DNA of 35,663 nucleotides from a virus (lineage: Duplodnaviria; Caudoviricetes). Under the pieces are notes generated by a model. The model saw nothing but the letters and a program-made list of their open reading frames with translations, did no database searches and was not told where the DNA came from. The number at the start of each line of letters is the position of its first letter. Within the stretch, counting starts at the first letter, position 1. The stretch is taken from IMG/VR virus record IMGVR_UViG_3300048998_000032, positions 1 to 35,663 of that record; one strand, 5' to 3'. The position numbers were made by a program, and so were the translations under genes. Positions 1 to 33,552 of this stretch are shown in pieces.

Positions 1-54
1 CATAGTCCCCGGACGGTGAGATGATCTCGAAGATCATCCCGTTGATGATGTGGT

Positions 55-252
55 TCAGTGGCGAGGTATCCCGGCCAGTCGCATAACGGATGCCACGATG
101 TCCTGCGGCCCCTTGAGTGTCCACCATCCGTCTTCACCTTTCACGAGAGTAAGCACGTTGTTGACCTGGTTGCTTGCAGCAACCTCCACGCGCAGTCTGG
201 CGATCTGACGACCGTTGAACTTACGCTTGACTTCGATGATGCCTCTAGGCAT
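55..252 (-). CDS. hypothetical protein, 65 aa
   Basis: ORF with GAGGGG RBS before the ATG; packed tightly with neighbouring leftward ORFs. Confidence 0.7.
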   Translation of the reverse strand: MPRGIIEVKRKFNGRQIARLRVEVAASNQVNNVLTLVKGEDGWWTLKGPQDIVASVMRLAGIPRH

Positions 253-263
253 CGTACACCCCC

Positions 264-587
264 TCAGGACGCCGGAGCGAGCTCCGAGATGTCGTCGGGA
301 ATGATCGGGTCGTGCTTACGCTTGCAGGTGTTACCGTCTTCCGTGACGGTCAGGACGGCAGTATCGTCGCCCATGCTCACAGAAACGGTGCCCGGCTTGT
401 CCCAGTCCCGGTTCAGAACATCGACCAGGCTGGGAGCCAGGTCAAGGCCGACCGACTGTTCGAGGTACAGATCGTTTGCGAACTGTGCCTGAACGGTAGC
501 CCACACAAAAGCCCAACCACCGAAGCAGCAGTTGAAGTCCTGAGTGAAGCCGTCCTGAATGCCACCGGTAATCTTTACCGTTGCCAT
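264..587 (-). CDS. hypothetical protein, 107 aa
   Basis: GAGGGAG RBS before the ATG; directly downstream of promoter element 613-677. Confidence 0.8.
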   Translation of the reverse strand: MATVKITGGIQDGFTQDFNCCFGGWAFVWATVQAQFANDLYLEQSVGLDLAPSLVDVLNRDWDKPGTVSVSMGDDTAVLTVTEDGNTCKRKHDPIIPDDISELAPAS

Positions 588-612
588 GTCTCTCCCTCGA
601 TTTGCTGTCTCG

Positions 613-677
613 GTTGGTCCTGATAGACCAACACCGCGAACCTACCATCGGCAGATTCACGATGCAAGTGCATCAGG
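613..677 (-). promoter_or_regulatory. repeated promoter/hairpin element, copy 1 (TTGCAT-N17-TAGGTT)
   Basis: -35 at 667-662 and -10 at 644-639 inside a ~28-bp imperfect hairpin, followed by a TTGGTC..GACCAA hairpin; homologous to 1724-1787 and 3224-3286. Confidence 0.75.
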
Positions 678-984
678 CGAGGTTGATTCCTTCGCTCATG
701 AGCCAGGAGAAGTGCACCGTGTACTCACGATGCTGTAGGCCGCCGTAGACGGCCATTCTCCATGTCCAGTGCTCGCCCTCGATAGGGTAGAGCATGACAT
801 CGGAGCAGGCCGGTATCTGGATGCCATCGGGCATCATTACCGGCTCAATGACCAGAGCCTTCTTGCCGTACATCTTCGGGTTATTGATCCCCTTAGGCTT
901 CTCCGCCTGGGACTCTATCCAGGCTTGGCAGTTTGTGCAACAGCCGGAACCTCCGAGATGAAGCGACGCCTGATCTACCATCAT
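673..984 (-). CDS. hypothetical protein, 103 aa, with a CxxC motif
   Basis: 4-nt ATGA overlap with upstream ORF 981-1388; GAGG RBS; CCTNC motif. Confidence 0.75.
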   Translation of the reverse strand: MMVDQASLHLGGSGCCTNCQAWIESQAEKPKGINNPKMYGKKALVIEPVMMPDGIQIPACSDVMLYPIEGEHWTWRMAVYGGLQHREYTVHFSWLMSEGINLA

Positions 985-1388
985 CTCACCTCACTGTAGT
1001 GCATCATCTTGAGCCATTCCATGTACACATTCGGAATGACTTCGATGCTGTGCCATGACGCGCCCTGATGGGCCATGTCATTGATCCCTTGGGCGTGGTG
1101 CAGAGCGTACTCGCTCAGACCGAGCCACCCTGCACCAATCAGCAGGTCCAGGGTCAGGACGCCTTGAGCGTCCCGTGAATCAGCGAGCTGATCCTCACCA
1201 TACCCCATGGCTACCATAATGGCATCCAGAAGGCGCGGTGAGCGACTGAACGGCTCTTGCTTGCAGCAGTGTTGCGCCGCTTGCATGAACCCTACATCGT
1301 CTCTAGCCATTGTGCAACCCCTCGATAGACTGAGTAGTCCGAACCGCATCCACAGGGGATCGAACCCCATGGATGCGACTCTAATCAC
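981..1388 (-). CDS. hypothetical protein, 135 aa
   Basis: ORF packed between 1397 and 984; start codon uncertain. Confidence 0.7.
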   Translation of the reverse strand: MIRVASMGFDPLWMRFGLLSLSRGCTMARDDVGFMQAAQHCCKQEPFSRSPRLLDAIMVAMGYGEDQLADSRDAQGVLTLDLLIGAGWLGLSEYALHHAQGINDMAHQGASWHSIEVIPNVYMEWLKMMHYSEVR

Positions 1389-1396
1389 TCACTCAT

Positions 1397-1699
1397 TCAC
1401 GCTGCCATGGGCAGCGGTTCGTACGGCGTCACCGTGTAGGTGAAGATCGTGGCACCCTCGGTACCCAGGTGCATAGTCCCGAAGTCCGGCAGTGCCTGCC
1501 GGGCGATGCCCATCGAGTAGTCGAACATCTCGGCCCACTTCTCGTCGGCCAGACCCTCGGCCTTGAGCTTGGACCAGCGCATTTCCAGGTCACGGTGGAC
1601 CTGGCGCCAGGCCAGCTCAATGGTCGGGTGTGAGCTTTCGCTCACCACCGTACCACCCAGGTCCGTAACGGTCAAGGTGGATTCCATCTTGCGAGGCAT
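1397..1699 (-). CDS. hypothetical protein, ~100 aa
   Basis: start moved to ATG 1699, which follows GAGGGAG; downstream of promoter copy 2. Confidence 0.75.
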   Translation of the reverse strand: MPRKMESTLTVTDLGGTVVSESSHPTIELAWRQVHRDLEMRWSKLKAEGLADEKWAEMFDYSMGIARQALPDFGTMHLGTEGATIFTYTVTPYEPLPMAA

Positions 1700-1723
1700 A
1701 TCCGTCTCCCTCATGCTCTATGC

Positions 1724-1787
1724 TTGGTTCTGATGAACCAACACCATCACCCTACACTCGGTAGAGGGATGATGCAAGACCATCAGG
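1724..1787 (-). promoter_or_regulatory. repeated promoter/hairpin element, copy 2 (TTGCAT-N17-TAGGGT)
   Basis: -35 at 1777-1772, -10 at 1754-1749; same architecture as copy 1 with compensatory changes. Confidence 0.75.
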
Positions 1788-1788
1788 T

Positions 1789-1893
1789 CTACTTGTCTAG
1801 TGGAGCCAGAAGGCTCAGCTTGTCACTGAACGGGTTAATCAGTGGAGCAATGAACCCGAACAGGACGATCAGCTCGAACAGGTGCTCTGTCAC
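1789..1893 (-). CDS. small hydrophobic peptide, 34 aa (MTEHLFELIVLFGFIAPLINPFSDKLSLLAPLDK)
   Basis: not in the ORF track; GTG overlaps the TGA of ORF 1890-2162 (GTGA); AGGAG RBS; fills the gap exactly. Confidence 0.6.
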   Translation of the reverse strand: MTEHLFELIVLFGFIAPLINPFSDKLSLLAPLDK

Positions 1894-2162
1894 CAGGGGC
1901 TCCTGACGCTGTTGTCCTTGCGGTACGTGGTCGGCTTAGGAGCGAACCACAGTTCGCCTGTGGTGTTCCTCTGCCGCAGTGAAGGCGCCTTGCTGGCCTT
2001 CACCCTACCACGTCCTCCCGTGTCCTTGGATACACCATCGTCGTATTCGAGTGACGGTGCTCCGTTGCCGACCTGCATCCGCCGTTTGGCAACAGCCTTG
2101 CGTGCCTCTCGGCCCCGCTTGCTGCCGTCCTTCGGCTTGAGCATCGGATTCTTGAGACCCAT
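1890..2162 (-). CDS. basic (K/R-rich) hypothetical protein, 90 aa
   Basis: start moved to ATG 2162 after GGAGG; the upstream part of track ORF 1890-2405 lies in structured non-coding sequence. Confidence 0.7.
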   Translation of the reverse strand: MGLKNPMLKPKDGSKRGREARKAVAKRRMQVGNGAPSLEYDDGVSKDTGGRGRVKASKAPSLRQRNTTGELWFAPKPTTYRKDNSVRSPW

Positions 2163-2169
2163 CGTAACC

Positions 2170-2606
2170 TCCGTTGGATTGCTTGTCCACCAGGACTCAC
2201 CGAAGTCTGGAATGTTGCTCCCTCCGTATTCGGTGAACCCCGGAAGACCTTCGTTCCGGCCTGTGTGCCTCACACCTTGCGGTGTGTGGCCCGTTGGCCG
2301 ATCCGAAGAATCTTGGGAGATTCTTGGATCCGAATGCCAATGAGATCCTACCCCATCGCTCATTCGTCGTGCAAGCCTAAACACGAATCTCGTCACCATC
2401 CCCAACCGTCAGTGGTCCAACGGGGTACCAGAGATGTTTACCGATCAACCGGCAAGCACTGTATCATTGCAACGCGCTGGCAGTCCAGTTCCACGTTCGC
2501 CCGGCACCGAGTGGTCAGGACTCACCTGATTCCACGGTGGGAAACCTCCCGCAAGGGAGATCGTACCCCGGTAACTCTCGCTTCCCTATCGTGCGGCACA
2601 CGCCAC
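2170..2606 (-). ncRNA. candidate large structured ncRNA or 5' leader (~440 nt)
   Basis: promoter TTGACA(2641-2636)-N17-AAGACT; long-range helix CGGGGTAC/GTACCCCG (2570-2563 with 2428-2421) enclosing several hairpins; more hairpins down to 2170, including a GCAA tetraloop. Confidence 0.5.
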
Positions 2607-2612
2607 GTGATA

Positions 2613-2641
2613 AGTCTTCACACTGTAAGCCCGCCTGTCAA
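2613..2641 (-). promoter_or_regulatory. sigma70/HrdB-type promoter TTGACA-N17-AAGACT
   Basis: consensus -35 with 17-nt spacer; -35 lies inside the TGTCAAG..CTTGACA inverted repeat (2636-2660). Confidence 0.55.
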
Positions 2642-2644
2642 GTA

Positions 2645-2850
2645 GGACGTTCCCTTGACATCGGCCGCCTAAGCGGCTGTGACCTTCGGGGCTGGTGTAG
2701 CGCTCCCTTACGTTGCCGCAAGAGTCAACCCTCATCGGACAGCTTCCCCGTGGTTTCACACGGGCTCGCAGTGTTGCATGTAGTTGGTAGGCCCGGACCG
2801 CGCCTTGCAGGGCTGGTCTGCCTGTTGCGCCAGGTTCGGCGCCTCGTTCT
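2645..2850 (-). ncRNA. candidate structured ncRNA (~200 nt)
   Basis: follows the promoter at 2885; consecutive hairpins (GCGCC/GGCGC, CCGTG/CACGG, CTCTTGC/GTAAGGG, GCCGC/GCGGC); no RBS-led ORF. Confidence 0.4.
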
Positions 2851-2856
2851 GGTGTA

Positions 2857-2885
2857 ACCCTACACCCCGTTGCCGGGGCTGTCAA
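2857..2885 (-). promoter_or_regulatory. promoter TTGACA-N17-TAGGGT with a GCAA-loop hairpin in the spacer
   Basis: near-perfect actinobacterial housekeeping consensus; spacer GCCCCG-GCAA-CGGGGT. Confidence 0.7.
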
Positions 2886-2970
2886 GCCCTGGTCTGTCGA
2901 TCCGCATCGGATGGCAGGGAACAACCTGCGTTCCCCGGTCCGACTTGGATGCCTAGCCCCAGGTGGTGAA

Positions 2971-3001
2971 ACCTTACCACACCTTGCGGTGTGTCTGTCA
3001 A
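2971..3001 (-). promoter_or_regulatory. possible promoter TTGACA-N19-TAAGGT with a GCAA-loop hairpin in the spacer
   Basis: consensus -35 but long spacer; CACACC-GCAA-GGTGTG hairpin is repeated exactly at 2271-2287. Confidence 0.45.
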
Positions 3002-3223
3002 GTCCGGATCGTTTCGACCGAAGCCGTGTGACCGAACCTAACGGTGCGAGCTTACCAGCTCCCCCCGGCTCCCGCAACTCCTGTCCTACAGCTTCCCGCC
3101 CGACGTTCCGGACGGTCCGCCAGGACCGATCATGCGGGTACCTAGGGAGCCTGTAGAGCCTGCGGTGGAGAGCGTACCACAGGTAGAGGCCCATGGGGCT
3201 TGCCTGCCTTGCACGCTGTCCGG

Positions 3224-3286
3224 CTGGTCTAGAAGACCAACACCGTCACCCTAGCATGAGCTAGGGGAACGATGCAAGTGCTCTAG
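3224..3286 (-). promoter_or_regulatory. repeated promoter/hairpin element, copy 3 (TTGCAT-N18-TAGGGT)
   Basis: -35 at 3277-3272, -10 at 3253-3248; 27-bp imperfect hairpin; followed by non-coding structured sequence rather than a gene. Confidence 0.75.
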
Positions 3287-3489
3287 CTGAACGCGTTGAA
3301 CGGGGTGGAGCGGTTCCGGCACTCGGCCAGGTTGATACCCAGGGTATCCGCCAGGTTGGAGAGCTTGAACAGGTTCTGCTCAAGCCCGATCGGGCCGGTC
3401 TGCCGTTCCATCTTCCGGGCGGTCCCGCCCATCCGGCGGGCCGCTTCCTGTGCAACCCCAAGGTAGCGCATCCCCTGCGTGCTGTCCAT
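3283..3489 (-). CDS. hypothetical protein, 68 aa
   Basis: GGGAGG RBS; own promoter at 3531-3559. Confidence 0.75.
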   Translation of the reverse strand: MDSTQGMRYLGVAQEAARRMGGTARKMERQTGPIGLEQNLFKLSNLADTLGINLAECRNRSTPFNAFS

Positions 3490-3530
3490 CGCTGGCCTCC
3501 CGGTCGGTGTGTTCGTTGCTGACAGGGATA

Positions 3531-3559
3531 ACTCTGCTCCCCTCGGGCACCCCTGTCAA
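3531..3559 (-). promoter_or_regulatory. promoter TTGACA-N17-CAGAGT
   Basis: consensus -35, 17-nt spacer; bracketed by a TGACAGGG/CCCTGTCA inverted repeat. Confidence 0.55.
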
Positions 3560-3571
3560 GGGGGTAGCCCG

Positions 3572-3587
3572 TGTGACCTAGGTCACA
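3572..3587. promoter_or_regulatory. perfect 16-bp palindrome TGTGACCTAGGTCACA, CRP/GlxR-type operator
   Basis: exact match to TGTGA-N6-TCACA, between two leftward promoters. Confidence 0.55.
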
Positions 3588-3619
3588 TCGTGTACGTGAG
3601 TAACGAAGGAACACGCGCG

Positions 3620-3648
3620 TACCTACCATGGCTGACCTAGTGTGTCAA
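3620..3648 (-). promoter_or_regulatory. possible promoter TTGACA-N17-TAGGTA
   Basis: consensus -35, 17-nt spacer; -10 lacks the final T. Confidence 0.4.
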
Positions 3649-3751
3649 TGGGTGTGGTGTGTGGTGTTGGGCACATAGTCAAAAACAGACAGACCGTTCT
3701 GTCTACCCCACCTATACAGTGTACAGTTACAGGATTATTACCCTAAAACCC

Positions 3752-3780
3752 TTGACATCAGGGCTTGACCCGGGCATACT
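3752..3780 (+). promoter_or_regulatory. rightward promoter TTGACA-N17-CATACT
   Basis: consensus -35 and 17-nt spacer, pointing toward the terminase operon. Confidence 0.55.
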
Positions 3781-3881
3781 TAACCCGGCCCCACCCCCCT
3801 GTACCTACTATCTACCCGTAAATTTCCTCCCAACGCTCTGACCTGCATGTATAGTGTGCTAGGCAAGCCATCGCACACCAG

Positions 3882-4135
3882 TTTCAAAGCTAAGGGTATA
3901 AGCTTTGAAATATACCTCCCTATATATATAGTGAGAGCTTCGCTAGAAGCTCGAACGCTTCAGCTCTCACCCTAACAGTGAGACCCTAAGGTCTCACACT
4001 CACAGCGGTTCGTTTAGCTCACCGCTGCTAGGAAGCCCCAAGGCTTCCTTTGGGGAAGCCTCGGAGCGGAATTATGGAAGCGGAGAGGCTGGGGACTTCA
4101 GTCCTGGCGGACGTTCGTCCCCTCTAGAGCGGAGG
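3882..4135. repeat. AT-rich cluster of inverted repeats (candidate origin or packaging region)
   Basis: TTTCAAAGCT/AGCTTTGAAA (3882-3910), (TA)5 at 3921-3930, GTGAGAGCT/AGCTCTCAC, GTGAGACC/GGTCTCAC, GGAAGCC/GGCTTCC. Confidence 0.55.
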
Positions 4136-4156
4136 GACTGCTGGAACGGAGCGATA

Positions 4157-6082
4157 GTGCCAAAGAGGGATTACAGGGCTAAGGCCCTGTCGGCTGATGA
4201 AGCCAAGAGGGTGTACCTCGATGGTATCGCAGCGGGACTCAGCAGACTAGACGCTCTCGCGCCTACGGGGCGCTCAAGCATTAAAACCGTTGACAACTGG
4301 ATGGCGAGTGACCGCGAGTTCGCGGAACGAGTCAAGGACATCCGCATCGGACGCACCGAGGCTAAGACCCGTGGTGTGGACCAGGACGTAGCGAACATTG
4401 GGTTCGCCGATTGGCGTAAGCAGTTCCTGGGTGTGGACACGTTCCCCCACCAGCAGGCATGGATCGACCTTCTGGAAGGTCGTGAGTACACTCCTCGCCA
4501 GGGCGAGACCTATGAGCCTTCTGACCTTAACCGCCTCATCGTCAACGTCCCGCCGTTCCATGCCAAGTCTTCTACGCTGACCATCGACTATCCGGTCTAC
4601 CGGATCTGCATGAACCCGAACGTTCGTATCATCATCGTCTCTAAGCGTCTGGACCAGGCCAAGAAGTTCCTGTACGCTATCAAGACCCGGCTGACATCTA
4701 ACCGCTTCGCTGCCCTTCAGGCAGCTTATGCACCCGAGGGTGGCTTTAAGCCCGACCGCGCTGACGGCGCGTCCTGGGGTATGGAGAAGATCTACGTCAG
4801 GGGCGTTGACTCCGGCGAGAAAGATCCCACCGTAGAAGCCCTGGGCATGGGTGGTCAGATCTATGGTAGCCGCGCGGACCTGATCATCATGGATGACTGC
4901 ATCGTGATGTCCAACGCTGGACAATCTGAGCAGCAGATTGCCTGGATTGAGTCCGAGGTTGAGAACCGAGTCCGTGACGGCAAGATCCTGATCGTAGGCA
5001 CCAGGCTTTCACCTAAGGACATGTACAAGGAACTCCGTAACGGAGACCGGTACCTGTCTGGTAGGAGCCCCTGGGGCTACCTGCGGCAGCCTGCGGTGCT
5101 GAGGTACGACGAAGACCCCGAGAAGTGGGAGACCCTCTGGCCCTACTCCACGTCTCCTATGGAGACGGGGCAGAAGCCGGACGAGAATGGCATGTATCCC
5201 GCGTGGCCGGGGCCACGGATGCACATGGAGCGCAATAAGAAGCCTCCGCGCATCTGGGCGCTGGTTTACCAGCAGGAAGACATCTCCGACGATTCAGTGT
5301 TCCATCCGACCTGTGTTGCCGGATCGGTGAACCGTATGCGCAAACCAGGGCCTATGGCCGCTGGTGCCCCTGGCCATGCCCCTAACGGCATGGAGGGTCA
5401 GTACATCATCGCCTCTATGGACCCTGCTATGACCGGAGATACGTTCTCCCTGGTGATGGCAGTGGACAAGTACGCTGATGCTGGCAAGGTTAACCGCAGA
5501 ATCCTGAACGCCTGGCTCAAGACTTCACCTACACCAGCCTACATCCGTGACCACATCAAGATGGTGACCGAGCAGTTCGGTGTAGATGAGTGGGTCATCG
5601 AGCAGAACGCATTCCAGCTATTCCTCATCCACGATGAGGACATCAACCGCTACCTTCAGCAGCGTGGTGTGAAGCTGACGCCTCACTATACCAGCCGGAA
5701 CAAGCAGGACCCGGACTTCGGTGTAGCCTCTGTGGCTCCACTGTTCGGTAACCTCATCCAACGTCCCGATGGCCACAGGAACGGTGTCGATCACGCAGGT
5801 GATCACATCATTGAACTGCCCGATCCTGACAAATCCGAGGGCATTAAGGCCCTGATCGAGCAGCTCACGTCCTGGCAGCCCGGTAAACTGGGCAAGGAAC
5901 TGAAGATGGATGGGCCTATGGCCCTATGGTTTGCTGAGCTAAGGGCTCGATCCCTCATGGGGATCGGCCGCAAGAGCCAGAAAACACACCTTGATAATCC
6001 GTATCTGTCCCGTTCCGACAGGGCCAAGCAGTCCGTCGTGACCACGGAGGCTTTTAGAAAGCTAATGGAAGAGAGATTCTAG
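4157..6082 (+). CDS. terL: terminase large subunit
   Basis: Q-motif HQQAW, Walker A-like VPPFHAKS, Walker B LIIMDD, coupling motif VGT, nuclease ASMDPA, IEQNAFQ, C-terminal DGPMALW. Confidence 0.93.
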   Translation: MPKRDYRAKALSADEAKRVYLDGIAAGLSRLDALAPTGRSSIKTVDNWMASDREFAERVKDIRIGRTEAKTRGVDQDVANIGFADWRKQFLGVDTFPHQQAWIDLLEGREYTPRQGETYEPSDLNRLIVNVPPFHAKSSTLTIDYPVYRICMNPNVRIIIVSKRLDQAKKFLYAIKTRLTSNRFAALQAAYAPEGGFKPDRADGASWGMEKIYVRGVDSGEKDPTVEALGMGGQIYGSRADLIIMDDCIVMSNAGQSEQQIAWIESEVENRVRDGKILIVGTRLSPKDMYKELRNGDRYLSGRSPWGYLRQPAVLRYDEDPEKWETLWPYSTSPMETGQKPDENGMYPAWPGPRMHMERNKKPPRIWALVYQQEDISDDSVFHPTCVAGSVNRMRKPGPMAAGAPGHAPNGMEGQYIIASMDPAMTGDTFSLVMAVDKYADAGKVNRRILNAWLKTSPTPAYIRDHIKMVTEQFGVDEWVIEQNAFQLFLIHDEDINRYLQQRGVKLTPHYTSRNKQDPDFGVASVAPLFGNLIQRPDGHRNGVDHAGDHIIELPDPDKSEGIKALIEQLTSWQPGKLGKELKMDGPMALWFAELRARSLMGIGRKSQKTHLDNPYLSRSDRAKQSVVTTEAFRKLMEERF

Positions 6083-17673: not shown

Positions 17674-17710
17674 CACAATGGTACACGTTCTTCTAGGAAT
17701 GTGTACCCAT

Positions 17711-17782
17711 CGCGGGATGGTGTAAAGGAAACACACCTGGCTCATAACCAGGATGATATGGGTTCGAGTCCCATTCCCGCCA
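17711..17782 (+). tRNA. tRNA with anticodon CAU (Met; initiator, elongator or Ile2 identity unresolved)
   Basis: acceptor GCGGGA/TCCCGC with C1:C72 mismatch, D-stem GTGT/ACAC, anticodon arm CCTGG-CTCATAA-CCAGG, T arm ATGGG-TTCGAGT-CCCAT; CCA not encoded. Confidence 0.9.
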
Positions 17783-17783
17783 C

Positions 17784-17854
17784 GGGTTGCAAGTGTTACG
17801 GTAGCACTTCGGTCTCCAAAACCGACAGCCGAGGTTCGACTCCTCGGCAGCCCG
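17784..17854 (+). tRNA. tRNA-Trp (CCA)
   Basis: acceptor GGGTTGC/GCAGCCC, G73, anticodon arm TCGGT-CTCCAAA-ACCGA, T arm CGAGG-TTCGACT-CCTCG; 3' CCA not encoded. Confidence 0.92.
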
Positions 17855-17858
17855 CACC

Positions 17859-17966
17859 GATCCGGATCAACCGGCCCCGGGATCGCGTACAAGCACCGGT
17901 AGCAAGAGCTAGGCCAGGTCCCCCGCCTGCAACCTACGGCTTGCGCACTAACCTAACACATGGGAG
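17859..17966 (+). promoter_or_regulatory. structured leader (possible pseudoknot) upstream of the scaffold gene
   Basis: GATCCGG/CCGGGATC stem whose loop ACCGG can pair with downstream CCGGT; long GCAAG..CTTGC hairpin whose TCCCCC loop is complementary to the GGGAG RBS. Confidence 0.5.
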
Positions 17967-17973
17967 TAGCAAC

Positions 17974-18489
17974 ATGGCTGACTGGGACGACGACGACAAC
18001 TTCGAGGACGGCACCGAGCTGGTTAAGCAGCTTCGGAAGCAGCTCAAGGAGAAGACCGCAGCACTCAAGGAACGCGAGGAGCGCCTCGCTGAGCTTGAGC
18101 CGCAGGTTAGGGCTAACAGCCTTACGTCAATCCTGTCGGAACTGAACGTCAAGGACCCTCGGGTCGCTAGGCTTATGCCGAAGGAGATCGACGTGACAAA
18201 GGAAAACGTCGAATCGTGGCTGGGTGAGTATGGTGACCTGTTCAATATCAAGACCGGAGAGACCGAAGGCGCTGAGAGCGCTTCGGCCACGACTGATACT
18301 ACGAACACCGGGTCTACTGAACAGCAGGACTGGCAGCGATTCCAGGCCCAGTCGCAGGCGGCCGGTGCCGCCGCACCTGACACCGAGAGCAATCAGATCG
18401 CCATGCTTCAGCGGGCGAACGAGGCTAGCGGTGGCAATGTAGACAAATATTTTGCCATGCTTCGTGGTGAGATCCCGATCCCGAATTAA
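17974..18489 (+). CDS. capsid scaffolding protein
   Basis: start moved to ATG 17974 after GGGAG; acidic N-terminus (MADWDDDDNFED) then coiled coil; directly before the capsid gene. Confidence 0.85.
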   Translation: MADWDDDDNFEDGTELVKQLRKQLKEKTAALKEREERLAELEPQVRANSLTSILSELNVKDPRVARLMPKEIDVTKENVESWLGEYGDLFNIKTGETEGAESASATTDTTNTGSTEQQDWQRFQAQSQAAGAAAPDTESNQIAMLQRANEASGGNVDKYFAMLRGEIPIPN

Positions 18490-20327: not shown

Positions 20328-21815
20328 GTGACTACGCTTCAGGCGACTACCGACTTCACTGGCACAGATGGTGCAGCGTTTCCGACTGCGATGAATGGCG
20401 CGGTCAGCGGTGCCCTGGTGGGCACCAGGCTGATCAAGTCTAACACTGGTGAGTTCACCGTTGGCTCTGTCAACGGTAACTTCGGTGGTAACGACCGAGC
20501 GTCGGCTAACACCGCTCTGGCTAATACTACCACGGATGCCGTGGTCAGGGTCAAGTTCAGATTCATGAACACGGCCAGTGGAGGCGTTAACGCCACCAAG
20601 GACACTCTGTATCCTAGCGTGTGGGTTCGTGCCAACAGCACGATGGACTCGGCGTCCGGCTACAAGGTCGAGCTAGATCCTTTTACTACGAACTATGACG
20701 TTGCCAGGGTCCAGGCGTATGGTGGTACCAACTCCCTGGACTTTGGCACCGGTACCTTTGCCACTACAGTTGGTACCTGGTACTGGATTGTCTTCGGTGT
20801 CGTAGGTACTGCCATCAAGTTCATGATCTGGCAGGATGGTACACCACAGCCTGCTACCTGGCAGGCTCAGTATACCGACACCTTCATCACTGCTGGCTCG
20901 GTTGGTATCCAGGCTGGTAAGGCCGATGTCAACGGTGCGAAGATGCAGTGGGATGATCTCACTGTCTACTCCACGTTTGCAGAAGCCCTTCAGTTTACCG
21001 GAACTGTTGCTGGTACAGCAACTGGTTCTAGCGCCATTACAGGCCAGTCCGGTCGCAGGGGAACGGTAGCTGCTACAGCTACGGCCTCCGCTACGATCAC
21101 CGGAGCCATAAGCTCCGGGTCTGTTTCTGGTACTGCTACAGCAAGCGCTGTGATCACCGGTCAGTCTAACCGACTAGGGACCGTGAGCGGCTCTGTAACG
21201 GCCTCTAGTACCCTCACTGGTACATCTGGTCGCGTAGGCACCGTTAGTGCCACAGCGACCGGCACAGCGTCTCTGAGCGGCATTACTGGGTACCGTGGAA
21301 CCGTCACCGGTACAGCAACCGCATCAGCCAGCATCTCTGGACTTGATGCGATCCTGATCTATGGATCTGTATCTGGTACAGCGACTGCTTCGGCGGCCAT
21401 CTCTGGCTCGCCAGATAATCTGGGATCTGTCATTGGCGAGGCTATCGCCTCGGCGGAGATCCGTGGTGGGGTTGGTCTGTACTTTACGCCACCCTCATAC
21501 AAGCAACACCCACGGGACAGGCACCCACTGATTGCTCGGACCTACATCGTCGTGGGTGTAACGCTACTTAAGTTCGGGTCTTCGTACAGGACGTACATCG
21601 ACACGGACCCCGAGCTGATTGCCCAGGCTGACAAGACCTACCTGGGTGGTCACCTCTACTTCGTTGACTTCAGTGAAGTGGAAGAACTTAGGAACGCTGG
21701 CTATGGCCAGTGGCTCTCCGAAACCTATCCCACGTCCGGCAGCGGCAACTACCAGGTTATTGACTACTCGCAATACGGCGCCGGTATCTTCGGTACCGGA
21801 CCATTTGGAGCATAA
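20328..21815 (+). CDS. fibre-like virion protein: N-terminal beta-sandwich, ~20-aa repeats, C-terminal domain
   Basis: AGGAGG RBS; lectin-like beta-rich N-terminus; about eight GTVxGTATASxxIxG repeats. Confidence 0.75.
   Translation: MTTLQATTDFTGTDGAAFPTAMNGAVSGALVGTRLIKSNTGEFTVGSVNGNFGGNDRASANTALANTTTDAVVRVKFRFMNTASGGVNATKDTLYPSVWVRANSTMDSASGYKVELDPFTTNYDVARVQAYGGTNSLDFGTGTFATTVGTWYWIVFGVVGTAIKFMIWQDGTPQPATWQAQYTDTFITAGSVGIQAGKADVNGAKMQWDDLTVYSTFAEALQFTGTVAGTATGSSAITGQSGRRGTVAATATASATITGAISSGSVSGTATASAVITGQSNRLGTVSGSVTASSTLTGTSGRVGTVSATATGTASLSGITGYRGTVTGTATASASISGLDAILIYGSVSGTATASAAISGSPDNLGSVIGEAIASAEIRGGVGLYFTPPSYKQHPRDRHPLIARTYIVVGVTLLKFGSSYRTYIDTDPELIAQADKTYLGGHLYFVDFSEVEELRNAGYGQWLSETYPTSGSGNYQVIDYSQYGAGIFGTGPFGA
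20994..21468 (+). repeat. about 8 degenerate ~60-bp coding repeats
   Basis: GTVAGTATGSSAITG / GTVAATATASATITG / GSVSGTATASAVITG / GTVSGSVTASSTLTG / GTVSATATGTASLSG / GTVTGTATASASISG / GSVSGTATASAAISG / GSVIGEAIASAEIRG. Confidence 0.8.
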
Positions 21816-23636: not shown

Positions 23637-24317
23637 ATGAGTACATCCCAGAACGGATGGCCCGCGTACAACGACACGAAGAAGTTCGTTCGTGGTACTG
23701 CTGCGGGCTTCGGCTTCTGGGCTGCGAACGATGACGTGCGCGTCATCTTCGAGGATCTGGTCGGGTGGTTCAACAGAGTCGTTGAACCCCTGGCCGGTAA
23801 AGTCCTGGACGACTGGTCCTGGGCTAACCGGAATGTTCGCGGCTCAGACACTCAGGTGTCTAACCACGCGAGTGCGACAGCTATTGACCTGAATGCCCTC
23901 AAGCATCCACGTGGTGTAAAGAATACCTACACCAAGACTCAGCGCGCTGCTATCGACAGGCAGCTCGCCTACTACGAAGGCACCGTCCGGGCGGGTAAGG
24001 ATTACGTCAACTCGCCCGAGGATGACATGCACTTCGAGATCAACTCCGGCAAGATCGCGGTCAAGCATGTGGCCGACAAAATTCGCGCCAAGCTTAAAGC
24101 GCAGGAGGCTTTAATGGCTAAGCTCGACAAGGACGACATCAAGGCTATCGCCGAAGCGGTATGGACTATTGATATTGTCCCCAATGAGAATGCTCCGGAG
24201 GGTTCCAAGAACCCGACATGGACTCCTCGTAGTATGATCTCTGACATCGAGAATACTCAGGACAGCCACACGGAAATACTCAATCAAATCCTAGCTAAAC
24301 TGTCCGGTTCTAAATAA
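23637..24317 (+). CDS. endolysin, M15-family zinc peptidase
   Basis: SQNGWPA start, R..RG...SNHASATAIDLN (SxHxxxxAxD), DDMHFE; followed by membrane-protein genes. Confidence 0.88.
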   Translation: MSTSQNGWPAYNDTKKFVRGTAAGFGFWAANDDVRVIFEDLVGWFNRVVEPLAGKVLDDWSWANRNVRGSDTQVSNHASATAIDLNALKHPRGVKNTYTKTQRAAIDRQLAYYEGTVRAGKDYVNSPEDDMHFEINSGKIAVKHVADKIRAKLKAQEALMAKLDKDDIKAIAEAVWTIDIVPNENAPEGSKNPTWTPRSMISDIENTQDSHTEILNQILAKLSGSK

Positions 24318-32338: not shown

Positions 32339-32524
32339 CTACCACTGATCCTTGCCAGCGGCGGCCTGGTCCCACCCGAGGAGCCACATCTTCTCGTCGG
32401 AAGTCCTCTTCAGAAGACCGGACTTGTCACGGGCAACGCCGTTCTTGTGGGCACGCAGGCCCTCGACGTACATCTCCTTGGACCGGCCAGTGAAGCTGTT
32501 GCGGTTGATCTTACCCTTCGGCAT
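32339..32524 (-). CDS. Rmf/CrpP-like small protein
   Basis: Y.EG..A...G..RD........W..GW..A pattern resembles ribosome modulation factor; the CPY motif is absent. Confidence 0.55.
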   Translation of the reverse strand: MPKGKINRNSFTGRSKEMYVEGLRAHKNGVARDKSGLLKRTSDEKMWLLGWDQAAAGKDQW

Positions 32525-33206
32525 TGTTCCCCTTCGGTCGGTTGTCGTTCTCGATCAGGACCTTGAACATCGTGCGTCCTGCTGTATGGAATCCTACCAC
32601 ACCTTCGGGCTTGTCGAAACCCGGAGCAGCGAAGGACTTGCCTCCGTTGACCTTGAACATATTCAGGGCCATGGTTTCATTGAAGCCAGTGGTTGAACCC
32701 AGGCGGGGCACGACACCAAGACCAATGTCCGGGATGAGCGCTCCGCTCTCGGAGGCGAGCCATCCCCAGCGGTCAACATTGAACAGGCTGAACCGTCTGT
32801 GATCCAGGCCATAGTTCCGCTGGATACCACGACCCCACCACTCACCATAGTGCAGGCCAGGGCCGAGCACGTCAGCCAGGGTCATGGCGTTCTCTTTGAC
32901 CCACGAGGCGAAGCCGAAGTTGTCGGCTTTCGTGGTGAGCCATCGGTTGCGGCTACCGGCACGAACCCAGTATTCGTACTTGGGATCGAGGGTATCTTCA
33001 TCCACCTCCGTGGACGGAGGGATCACCACGGTGATGCCCTCTTTCTCCTCCCAGTCGGCGATGTCGTTGACGCCAGTAGCCATACCGAAGGGCTGCTCCT
33101 CAACGGAGACCATGCCATTGGTGCCGTCGATCTTCTCCGTCCAGATGACCTCTCGGTTCAGCCGGGGGATCTTTCCGAAGGCTGGGTATTCACCAGATTC
33201 CATCAT
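32511..33206 (-). CDS. RNA ligase (nucleotidyltransferase domain, Rnl2-like)
   Basis: motif I TEKIDGTN, GSRNR, motif III YGEWWG, IIIa FSLFN, IV PEGVV, V FKV; start moved to ATG 33206 after AGGAG. Confidence 0.88.
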   Translation of the reverse strand: MMESGEYPAFGKIPRLNREVIWTEKIDGTNGMVSVEEQPFGMATGVNDIADWEEKEGITVVIPPSTEVDEDTLDPKYEYWVRAGSRNRWLTTKADNFGFASWVKENAMTLADVLGPGLHYGEWWGRGIQRNYGLDHRRFSLFNVDRWGWLASESGALIPDIGLGVVPRLGSTTGFNETMALNMFKVNGGKSFAAPGFDKPEGVVGFHTAGRTMFKVLIENDNRPKGNNAEG

Positions 33207-33552
33207 TCGGGTTGTCTCCTTTGTCGGGGTTGATGTCCTTCTGGTATCCGAGCTGTTCGTAGTCGCTGATCTGTCGTCGGAAGTCAACGACTTCCTTGGA
33301 TCGGTCAACCTTCGAGAGAGAACCGTCGGGGTTCTCAACGATAGACGTACCGCCACCCTCCTTGATCTTCTCTCGGGTGACCTCGGTCAGCTCGGCGGTC
33401 TTCTCCGCCACTGTGGCGGTGACCTTGTTCGTGTAGTGCAGCGCTTCCGCTGCAACCTTGGTGCGCATGTTGCTACCAACAGCATACAGCACACTGGCAC
33501 TTGCCGCAATCCCTGTCCCGCCTCCGGCGAGGACAGCAGTGATGAACTCCAT
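33190..33552 (-). CDS. membrane-anchored hypothetical protein, 120 aa
   Basis: start moved to ATG 33552 after GGGAG; hydrophobic N-terminus. Confidence 0.7.
   Translation of the reverse strand: MEFITAVLAGGGTGIAASASVLYAVGSNMRTKVAAEALHYTNKVTATVAEKTAELTEVTREKIKEGGGTSIVENPDGSLSKVDRSKEVVDFRRQISDYEQLGYQKDINPDKGDNPNDGIW

What the first reader, a model, noticed from the sequence alone, without database searches (positions are those of the whole stretch)
2170..2606. Largest segment: ~440-nt multi-domain RNA fused to a very basic small ORF
Seen (minus strand): helix CGGGGTAC/GTACCCCG closes a ~150-nt multibranch domain containing CTCCC-TTGC-GGGAG, TCAGG-TGAGT-CCTGA, CTGG-ACTG-CCAG and AACGTG/CGCGTT. 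It is followed by GATCC-AAGAATCT-CCCA-AGATTCTT-CGGATC, CACACC-GCAA-GGTGTG, CCGGAA/TTCCGG and TTCACCGAA/TTCGGTGAG, ending at the GGAGG RBS of the K/R-rich 90-aa ORF 1890-2162. GGTGAGTCCTG occurs twice (near 2191 and 2517). Inference: a ribonucleoprotein pair (RNA plus basic RNA-binding protein) or a large regulatory leader.
Basis: partly seen in the sequence, partly recalled or inferred. Interest (0 to 1): 0.7.

Follow-up and report, generated by a model that had tools for sequence, protein, structure and literature searches.

The report
Large structured early RNA of actinophage
A gene-free stretch at the head of the predicted early genes of an uncultured soil phage, likely of Streptomyces or a relative, keeps its predicted hairpins through compensating changes in a related strain and matches no Rfam family, so it is likely a new large phage RNA made right after infection; its function and any partnership with the neighbouring basic protein are untested.

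Summary
The window is an 84%-complete Beephvirinae-like actinophage. 2163-2606 (minus) lies between a predicted promoter (2641-2613), the last of six tandem leftward promoters, and the RBS of an orphan 90-aa basic gene. Folding energy alone is weak evidence: z -4.3, but 5 of 42 control windows of this genome fold as well. A related strain gives the real support: all 6 changed stem pairs are kept (4 two-sided), the long 3' hairpin has a swapped stem around an unchanged loop, the 253-nt core has 1 change against 5.2% around it, and the extended ORF has a stop. No Rfam match, no ribozyme core, no homologue beyond near strains. Cultured Beephvirinae carry non-homologous 440-730-nt structured leaders in the same place; cluster A mycobacteriophages make an abundant, stable ~500-nt RNA there. 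Best reading: a Pleft-like stable early non-coding RNA whose 3' hairpin sets its end and throttles the basic gene (0.45). The RNP idea is untested. New variant of a known kind; interest 0.45.

The parts
2163..2606 (-). Predicted structured early RNA / leader, about 444 nt (5' end inferred from the promoter)
   Evidence: strain variation
2613..2641 (-). Predicted promoter TTGACA-17-AAGACT; same pattern (TTGACA-17-AAGAGT) heads the leader in 3 of 11 Beephvirinae examined; 0 changes in 2562-2680 in run X6
2593..2606 (-). 5'-terminal hairpin at the predicted start
   Evidence: P 0.52, 0.99
2543..2562 (-). Hairpin A: 5 pairs changed in the related strain, 5 kept (4 on both sides)
2291..2543 (-). 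Near-invariant core: 1 change in 253 nt (G-U to A-U at 2353); hairpins 2535-2511, 2500-2469, 2455-2438, 2386-2367, 2366-2331, 2330-2300
2258..2299 (-). CACACC-GCAA-GGUGUG hairpin; stem kept, 3 of 4 loop positions changed in the related strain; 17-nt copy at 2978-2994 in a promoter spacer
2185..2248 (-). Long 3' hairpin, stem letters swapped but pairing kept in the related strain; candidate processing or termination site; no U-tract follows
2209..2225 (-). Unchanged apical element GGAGGGAGCAACAUUCC (SD-like, purine-rich) in both strains
2168..2172 (-). GGAGG ribosome-binding site, kept in the related strains although the flanks differ
   Evidence: (table 7)
1890..2162 (-). Orphan 90-aa basic protein (pI 11.0); homologues P0003 98%, P0004 64%
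2607..2850 (-). Possible 5' extension when transcribed from the promoter at 2885; own domain 2774-2620 whose closing helix runs through the 2641 promoter spacer
2857..2885 (-). Predicted promoter TTGACA-17-TAGGGT
2971..3001 (-). Predicted promoter TTGACA-19-TAAGGT
3049..3077 (-). Predicted promoter TTGCGG-17-TAAGCT
3248..3277 (-). Predicted promoter TTGCAT-18-TAGGGT (repeat family with 1749-1777 and 639-667)
3531..3559 (-). Predicted promoter TTGACA-17-CAGAGT, first of the leftward array

Best explanation
The stretch is likely an abundant, stable non-coding RNA that host RNA polymerase would make from the phage's predicted tandem early promoters just after DNA entry: a folded, nearly invariant core that likely binds a protein partner during host takeover, framed by exchangeable hairpins, the last of which would set the RNA's 3' end (processing or weak termination) and let only part of the transcripts carry on into the basic gene. 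Shown: position, promoter-like sites, conserved pairing in three hairpins, strand, conservation of the core, absence of a conserved upstream reading frame. Inferred: transcription, both ends, stability, the role of the 3' hairpin, action on a protein. The analogy is the ~500-nt Pleft RNA of cluster A mycobacteriophages.
For: Actinophage context: terminase 42-44% identical to Streptomyces Beephvirinae, portal, capsid, lysis genes rightwards. Eight leftward promoter-like sites in 1-4200 against 9 on the same strand in the other 31 kb. Related strain, 2243-2606: 15 substitutions, 10 in stems, 6 of 6 changed pairs kept; 0 of 100,000 random placements broke no pair; on the plus strand 2 of 5 pairs break. 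3' region with 14 substitutions and 12 indel positions folds at -40.5 against -36.2 kcal/mol; 27 of 2000 random edits do as well. Core 1 of 253 against 119 of 2286 in seven flanking pieces, binomial P 2e-5: more constraint than plain hairpins need. 11 of 11 Beephvirinae examined have 474-766 nt from the last TTGACA to the first gene; 8 of 8 folded have z -3.0 to -6.3 and 29 of 93 consensus pairs show two-sided change. PMC5712189 (passages): ~500-nt stable RNA from Pleft, about 90% of transcripts end before gene 89 without a canonical terminator, processed, toxic; one part could not be deleted.
Against: Only two haplotypes span the RNA; runs X2, X3, X5, X6 are one study and the changes cluster in three hairpins, so they may be two or three recombination events, and the invariant core could be a recently shared block. 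The whole genome folds more than shuffles. The -10 box at 2618-2613 lacks the first T and its spacer lies in a strong predicted helix of the longer transcript, so the 5' end may be 2850. No terminator-like site between RNA and ORF. No sequence or covariance-model homology to the L5 Pleft RNA or to the Beephvirinae leaders: the analogy is positional only.
Confidence: 0.45

Rival explanations
1. A purely cis-acting leader: it stabilises the early mRNA and gates translation of the basic gene, by RNase III-type cutting of the long hairpins, ribosome loading on the SD-like loop, or a long-range helix over the RBS, possibly with feedback by the basic protein.
For: No terminator before the ORF. CCGUUGGA (2423-2416) pairs with 2178-2171, overlapping the RBS, at P 0.5-0.9, or alternatively with 2297-2291. 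Beephvirinae leaders keep a pyrimidine tract in 11 of 11 predicted to pair with the RBS in 8 of 8. SD sequences stabilise SP82 phage mRNA (PMC7509114, passage).
Against: The RBS-side arm is changed in the related strain, and the best anti-leader stretch (2560-2547) is hairpin A, which that strain replaces. A 250-nt invariant core 130-380 nt from the RBS is more than such control usually needs (inference).
Confidence: 0.25
2. RNA and basic protein form a ribonucleoprotein pair, for instance an N-like arginine-rich antiterminator with its binding hairpin, or a scaffold with its protein.
For: Adjacent in the window and in the related strain (X3 contig 2133-2543). Predicted single basic helix 15-30 in a disordered chain, basic positions kept in P0004. 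First gene behind a long leader, as lambda N is (recalled). A GNRA hairpin occurs twice.
Against: The GNRA loop changes at 3 of 4 positions in the related strain. No family, structure or atlas hit at a useful score. No boxA-like match. Beephvirinae leaders occur without a detectable relative of this protein.
Confidence: 0.12
3. No dedicated RNA: hairpins reflect the genome-wide folding bias and DNA palindromes of a promoter array, and the pattern of variation reflects mosaic exchange.
For: 5 of 42 control windows fold as well. Promoter spacers at 2885 and 3001 contain inverted repeats and one duplicates the CACACC hairpin. Hairpin A has a GNRA loop on the plus strand in both strains.
Against: G-U pairs appear on the minus strand and mismatches on the plus strand; 444 nt are kept free of a conserved ORF; the core is about 13-fold less variable than flanks that include genes.
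Confidence: 0.13
4. A ribozyme or self-splicing intron, used with the phage RNA ligase (32511-33356).
For: Multi-domain fold; RNA ligase gene in the genome; hammerhead-like CCGAUGA at 2738, outside the finding.
Against: No Rfam match at gathering score or at E up to 10 apart from four chance hits elsewhere; no hammerhead, group I, group II or T-loop motif inside 2163-2606 (motifs recalled); no interrupted gene: the ORF has its own RBS.
Confidence: 0.04

Closest known systems
Pleft early non-coding RNA of cluster A mycobacteriophages (L5, D29, StarStuff; PMC5712189, passages read) and nc_3 of Rhodococcus phage WC1 (PMC10986025, passages read)
   Same: Actinophage; right end of the genome ahead of the first leftward early gene; about 450-570 nt; no conserved ORF; strongly folded (L5 z -4.7); no canonical terminator at the 3' end.
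   Different: No sequence or model homology; six tandem promoters instead of one repressor-controlled promoter; no stoperator array found; expression, stability and toxicity not shown here.
Unannotated early leaders of Beephvirinae (Streptomyces cluster BF: Manuel, Abafar, FlowerPower, Treat, Stella and others)
   Same: Closest cultured phage group; tandem TTGACA promoters, then 440-730 nt of folded, covarying leader, then the first gene.
   Different: Not homologous by nhmmer profile or by models R1/R2; their invariant anti-RBS pyrimidine tract is absent here; different first gene.
GOLLD and ROOL RNAs (PMC12286853, passages read)
   Same: Large, multi-domain, phage-borne, function unknown.
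   Different: No Rfam match; not beside tRNA genes (those are at 17711-17855); shorter; no pseudoknot or multimer contacts shown.
Lambda pL-nutL-N leader and T7/SPO1/SP82 RNase III-processed early leaders (recalled; SP82 from a passage of PMC7509114)
   Same: Tandem early promoters, long leader, long hairpin just before the RBS of a small first gene; small basic protein as with N.
   Different: No conserved boxA/boxB; no protein homology; host is an actinobacterium; a large invariant core that those leaders are not known to have.

Membership tests
Cluster A Pleft ncRNA | Lies between the early promoter at the right genome end and the first early gene, without a conserved ORF | tested here: met
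   extended ORF broken in the related strain
Cluster A Pleft ncRNA | Sequence or structure homology to the L5 RNA | tested here: not met
   best R1 5.5 bits, R2 5.7 bits, outside the L5 RNA; no nhmmer hit at E 10; models rest on one sequence
Cluster A Pleft ncRNA | Very abundant, stable, processed transcript; toxic to the host | not testable with these tools
   no RNA holder listed
Beephvirinae early leader | Homology to the conserved core | tested here: not met
   profile of 11 leaders has no hit in the window at E 10; R1/R2 no hit below E 0.04
Beephvirinae early leader | Invariant pyrimidine tract complementary to the first gene's RBS | tested here: not met
   best anti-leader stretch is hairpin A, replaced in the related strain
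GOLLD / ROOL / OLE / raiA and other Rfam families | Match to the covariance model | tested here: not met
GOLLD / ROOL | Near tRNA genes | tested here: not met
   nearest tRNA 15 kb away
GOLLD / ROOL | Homo-multimeric RNA cage | not testable with these tools
   needs mass photometry or cryo-EM
N-type antitermination | Conserved boxB GNRA-like hairpin and boxA | tested here: not met
   loop changed at 3 of 4 positions; no boxA-like match (motif recalled)
N-type antitermination | Small disordered protein with an arginine-rich helix | tested here: inconclusive
   helix 15-30, mean pLDDT 57; no family hit
Self-cleaving ribozymes, group I/II introns | Catalytic core motifs or Rfam match | tested here: not met
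rRNA mimic | Significant likeness to 16S/23S rRNA | tested here: inconclusive
   15 of 16 letters match E. coli 16S 532-547 at the 3' hairpin loop, E 0.07; 1 of 60 shuffles and 1 of 160 genome windows score as high; one of 18 comparisons; shortened in the related strain; RF00177 does not ring in the genome

The most novel reading that the evidence does not exclude
Beephvirinae-like podoviruses open infection with a cassette of large, independently evolved folded RNAs that act as decoys for host ribosomal or RNA-binding proteins; this RNA is one of them, its unchanged loop imitates a ribosome-related site, and the basic protein behind it is its dedicated partner in a host-takeover ribonucleoprotein. 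The 109-nt piece of 16S rRNA that phage Stella carries in the same region would be a captured, still recognisable case of the same strategy.
Probability: 0.12. Interest if true: 0.78.

Novelty: new variant of a known kind. Interest (0 to 1): 0.45.

Why it matters
Abundant early non-coding RNAs at the genome end of actinophages have been seen since the L5/D29 work, one part apparently needed for lytic growth, and their function is unknown. This adds a new, unrelated fold in the same slot, with a clear split into invariant core and exchangeable hairpins, and it led to a covarying leader family in cultured Streptomyces phages where the question can be tested directly. By itself it is a rare RNA from an uncultured phage with two haplotypes and no expression data, which caps its interest.

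Tried and rejected
Homologue searches that found nothing: blastn against 50,697 phage records (none; two 20-nt chance matches); tblastn of the protein; the search for related loci with P0002, P0004, A1 or the gene at 1400-1702 in viral, metagenome and genome contigs; patterns in viral contigs (51 loci: 35: 0: 7) and genome contigs (2), none extending beyond the pattern or its hairpin; single-sequence models R1 and R2 on 39 and 78 sources and on 15 whole records (one 67-nt hairpin hit in G004 rejected). These tools may leave out records very near the window's genome, and one-sequence models are insensitive, so absence is not shown. P0005 is a repeat-driven chance hit. P0006 is the same gene called from an upstream GTG. 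No longer or fused form. Atlas scores 0.77-0.81 are within what shuffled proteins get. No RNA holder listed. Kissing loop between hairpin A (UUGC) and the GCAA loop: complementary in the window but the two loops do not change together. CACACC palindrome as operator: loop changes in the related strain. SD-like loop plus AUU as an upstream start: in frame in the window only. Long-range helix 2809-2793 / 2488-2468 in the 690-nt form: P about 0.7 in the window, lost from the list when the one-base deletion at 2802 seen in X2 and X4 is applied alone; the other changes there were cut from the output, so it stays open. TGGACA-17-TACGAT at 2189-2161: would start inside the ORF; rejected. No complex prediction was run (no protein pair is claimed). 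Earlier-findings look-ups by place and by sequence were empty. D29 region not fetched; L5 used instead.

Full report
Context. The window is the whole held record, a linear virus record put at 84% complete. The terminase at 4157-6082 is 42-44% identical to those of Streptomyces Beephvirinae; portal, capsid, tail and lysis genes follow rightwards, with dCTP deaminase, RNA ligase and exonuclease at the far end and two tRNAs at 17711-17855. Left of the terminase the small genes run leftwards. A promoter pattern of my own (recalled consensus) finds eight leftward sites in 1-4200 (3559, 3277, 3077, 3001, 2885, 2641, 1777, 667) against nine on that strand in the remaining 31 kb. This is read as the early region, by analogy with the right genome end of Manuel. 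The finding runs from just behind the 2641 site (predicted start near 2606) to the RBS of ORF 1890-2162.

Observation. The listed sequences are present. The minus strand folds at z -4.29, the plus strand at -2.02. A control lowers the weight of this: 237 windows of 150 nt average z -1.6 on both strands, and 5 of 42 control windows of 444 nt (21 places, both strands) beat their shuffles by as much.

Strain variation. Six soil runs hold part of the stretch; X1 is probably the source sample and was left out. Contigs of X2, X3, X5, X6 (one study) were laid on 2140-2680. Between 2243 and 2606 they list 15 substitutions: 10 in predicted stems, 5 unpaired. Six pairs change and six are kept, four on both sides; 0 of 100,000 random placements of the same changes left all pairs intact; on the plus strand 2 of 5 pairs break. 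For hairpin A alone the chance that nine random letters keep five pairs is 0.013. In 2163-2245 run X3 has 14 substitutions and 12 indel positions, yet the long hairpin re-forms around an unchanged GGAGGGAGCAACAUUCC element (-40.5 against -36.2 kcal/mol; random edits -29.6 +/- 4.4; 27 of 2000 as good). Loose ends of X2 and of X4 (another study) show the same kind of variant. The core 2291-2543 has 1 change in 253 nt, a G-U to A-U, against 119 in 2286 in seven longer X2/X3 pieces around it (P 2e-5), and 2562-2680 has 0 in 119. Limits: effectively two haplotypes; clustered changes may be two or three exchange events; three indel rows were cut and most rows; contigs are of low depth (2-5).

The protein. 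90 aa, 22 K+R, pI 11.0. Relatives: P0003 (98%) among 5.8 billion clusters and P0004 (64%, same start) among 1.84 billion representatives. No PHROG, Pfam or PDB match. AlphaFold on three sequences gives mean pLDDT 57 with one helix at 15-30. The extended frame 1890-2405 has an in-frame stop 22 codons before the ATG in X3, so the leader is not a conserved coding extension. Nothing here tests binding to the RNA.

Homologues of the RNA. None beyond near strains; no Rfam family. Terminase relatives at 70% identity differ: L002 has no such block; L001 has tandem leftward TTGACA sites but ends too soon.

Positional analogues. Manuel's right end has tandem promoters and an ORF-free stretch before its first gene (z -4.6). 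Of 33 Streptomyces phage records matching it I examined 11: all have 474-766 nt from the last TTGACA to the first gene and an invariant pyrimidine tract; 8 were folded, z -3.0 to -6.3, tract predicted to pair with the RBS, 29 of 93 consensus pairs with two-sided change (no phylogenetic control). Their profile does not hit the window, nor R1/R2 them. In cluster A mycobacteriophages the ~500 nt behind Pleft are the most abundant RNA, stable, processed, toxic, about 90% ending before gene 89 without a canonical terminator (PMC5712189, passages); WC1 and D29 data agree (PMC10986025 and bioRxiv 10.1101/2025.11.21.689395, passages). The L5 RNA is not homologous. I came to this comparison through an earlier scan note (e1-6080673), a lead and not support.

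Mechanism. I commit to a Pleft-like stable early RNA (0.45): shown are place, strand, conserved pairing in the flanking hairpins and the constrained core; inferred are transcription, ends, stability, the 3' hairpin as processing or termination site (no U-tract follows it; that actinobacterial terminators may lack one is recalled, with only search listings seen) and a protein target for the core. Rivals: cis leader (0.25), folding by-product (0.13), RNP with the basic protein (0.12), ribozyme (0.04). The 5' end is open: from the 2885 promoter the RNA would be about 690 nt with a further domain at 2774-2620. A 15-of-16 match of the conserved loop region to E. coli 16S 532-547 is borderline (E 0.07; 1 of 60 shuffles; 1 of 160 windows; one of 18 comparisons) and is only a lead.

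Novelty. Not in Rfam 15; paper searches listed no description of this RNA or of Beephvirinae leaders, within a library that lacks most subscription journals. PMC10690425 (abstract and outline only) lists 10,006 viral candidates in supplements I did not see. PMC12286853 and PMC9241854 were read as passages, PMC7509114 likewise. Other notes of this scan describe similar unclassified early RNAs in other actinophages, with no shared words to this one. Verdict: a real, probably new structured RNA in a known but unexplained slot of actinophage genomes; new variant of a known kind; interest 0.45.

Noticed in passing
L124:470-578 (+), Streptomyces phage Stella, OP751154.1: A 109-nt miniature of 16S rRNA (RF00177, 85.4 bits, E 3e-23, model positions 106-311 with about 97 left out; 38 of 40 letters identical to E. 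coli 16S 243-282) lies among the early promoters at the right genome end; not annotated as RNA. Candidate decoy for ribosomal proteins or rRNA-directed nucleases in a cultured phage.
   Followed up: partly
L076:13626-14176 (-) and L115-L124: Cultured Beephvirinae carry an unannotated 440-730-nt covarying leader RNA with an invariant pyrimidine tract complementary to the first gene's RBS (11 of 11); no Rfam match in the 5 loci scanned apart from the Stella piece.
   Followed up: partly
window 2677-2745 (-): Hammerhead-like arrangement (CCGAUGA, a stem, CGAAGGUC, closing stem GCUGU/ACAGC) but without room for stem III; inside a folded domain 2774-2620.
   Followed up: partly
window 3763-3831 (+): Element shared with related phages: 69 nt at 83% in L002/L003, its first 11 letters in 8 of 114 loci, always near the terminase gene; many soil contigs share only this part. 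Candidate genome end, packaging site or late promoter.
   Followed up: partly
whole window: Genome-wide excess of predicted secondary structure on both strands, coding genes included (mean z -1.6 per 150 nt; -16.5 kcal/mol per 444 nt; peaks near 1501-1650, 3901-4050, 20700-21143, 23701-23850).
   Followed up: no
window 614-677, 1724-1787, 3234-3278: Three copies of a promoter module (TTGCAT-17/18-TAGGGT/TAGGTT followed by GGTGTTGGT) ahead of early genes.
   Followed up: partly
window 2857-2885, 2971-3001, 2636-2660: Inverted repeats inside or across promoter elements: hairpins with GCAA loops in two spacers, and TGTCAAG/CTTGACA pairing the -35 box of the 2641 site with a rightward TTGACA.
   Followed up: no
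window 32511-33356 (-), 17711-17855 (+): RNA ligase gene and tRNA-Met/tRNA-Trp; the tRNAs overlap the start of ORF 17701-18489 as listed.
   Followed up: no
L114:1600-1720 (-), L5 Pleft RNA 3' part: Contains a T-arm-like hairpin within a tRNA-like segment in the printed fold; this is near the part reported as not deletable.
   Followed up: no
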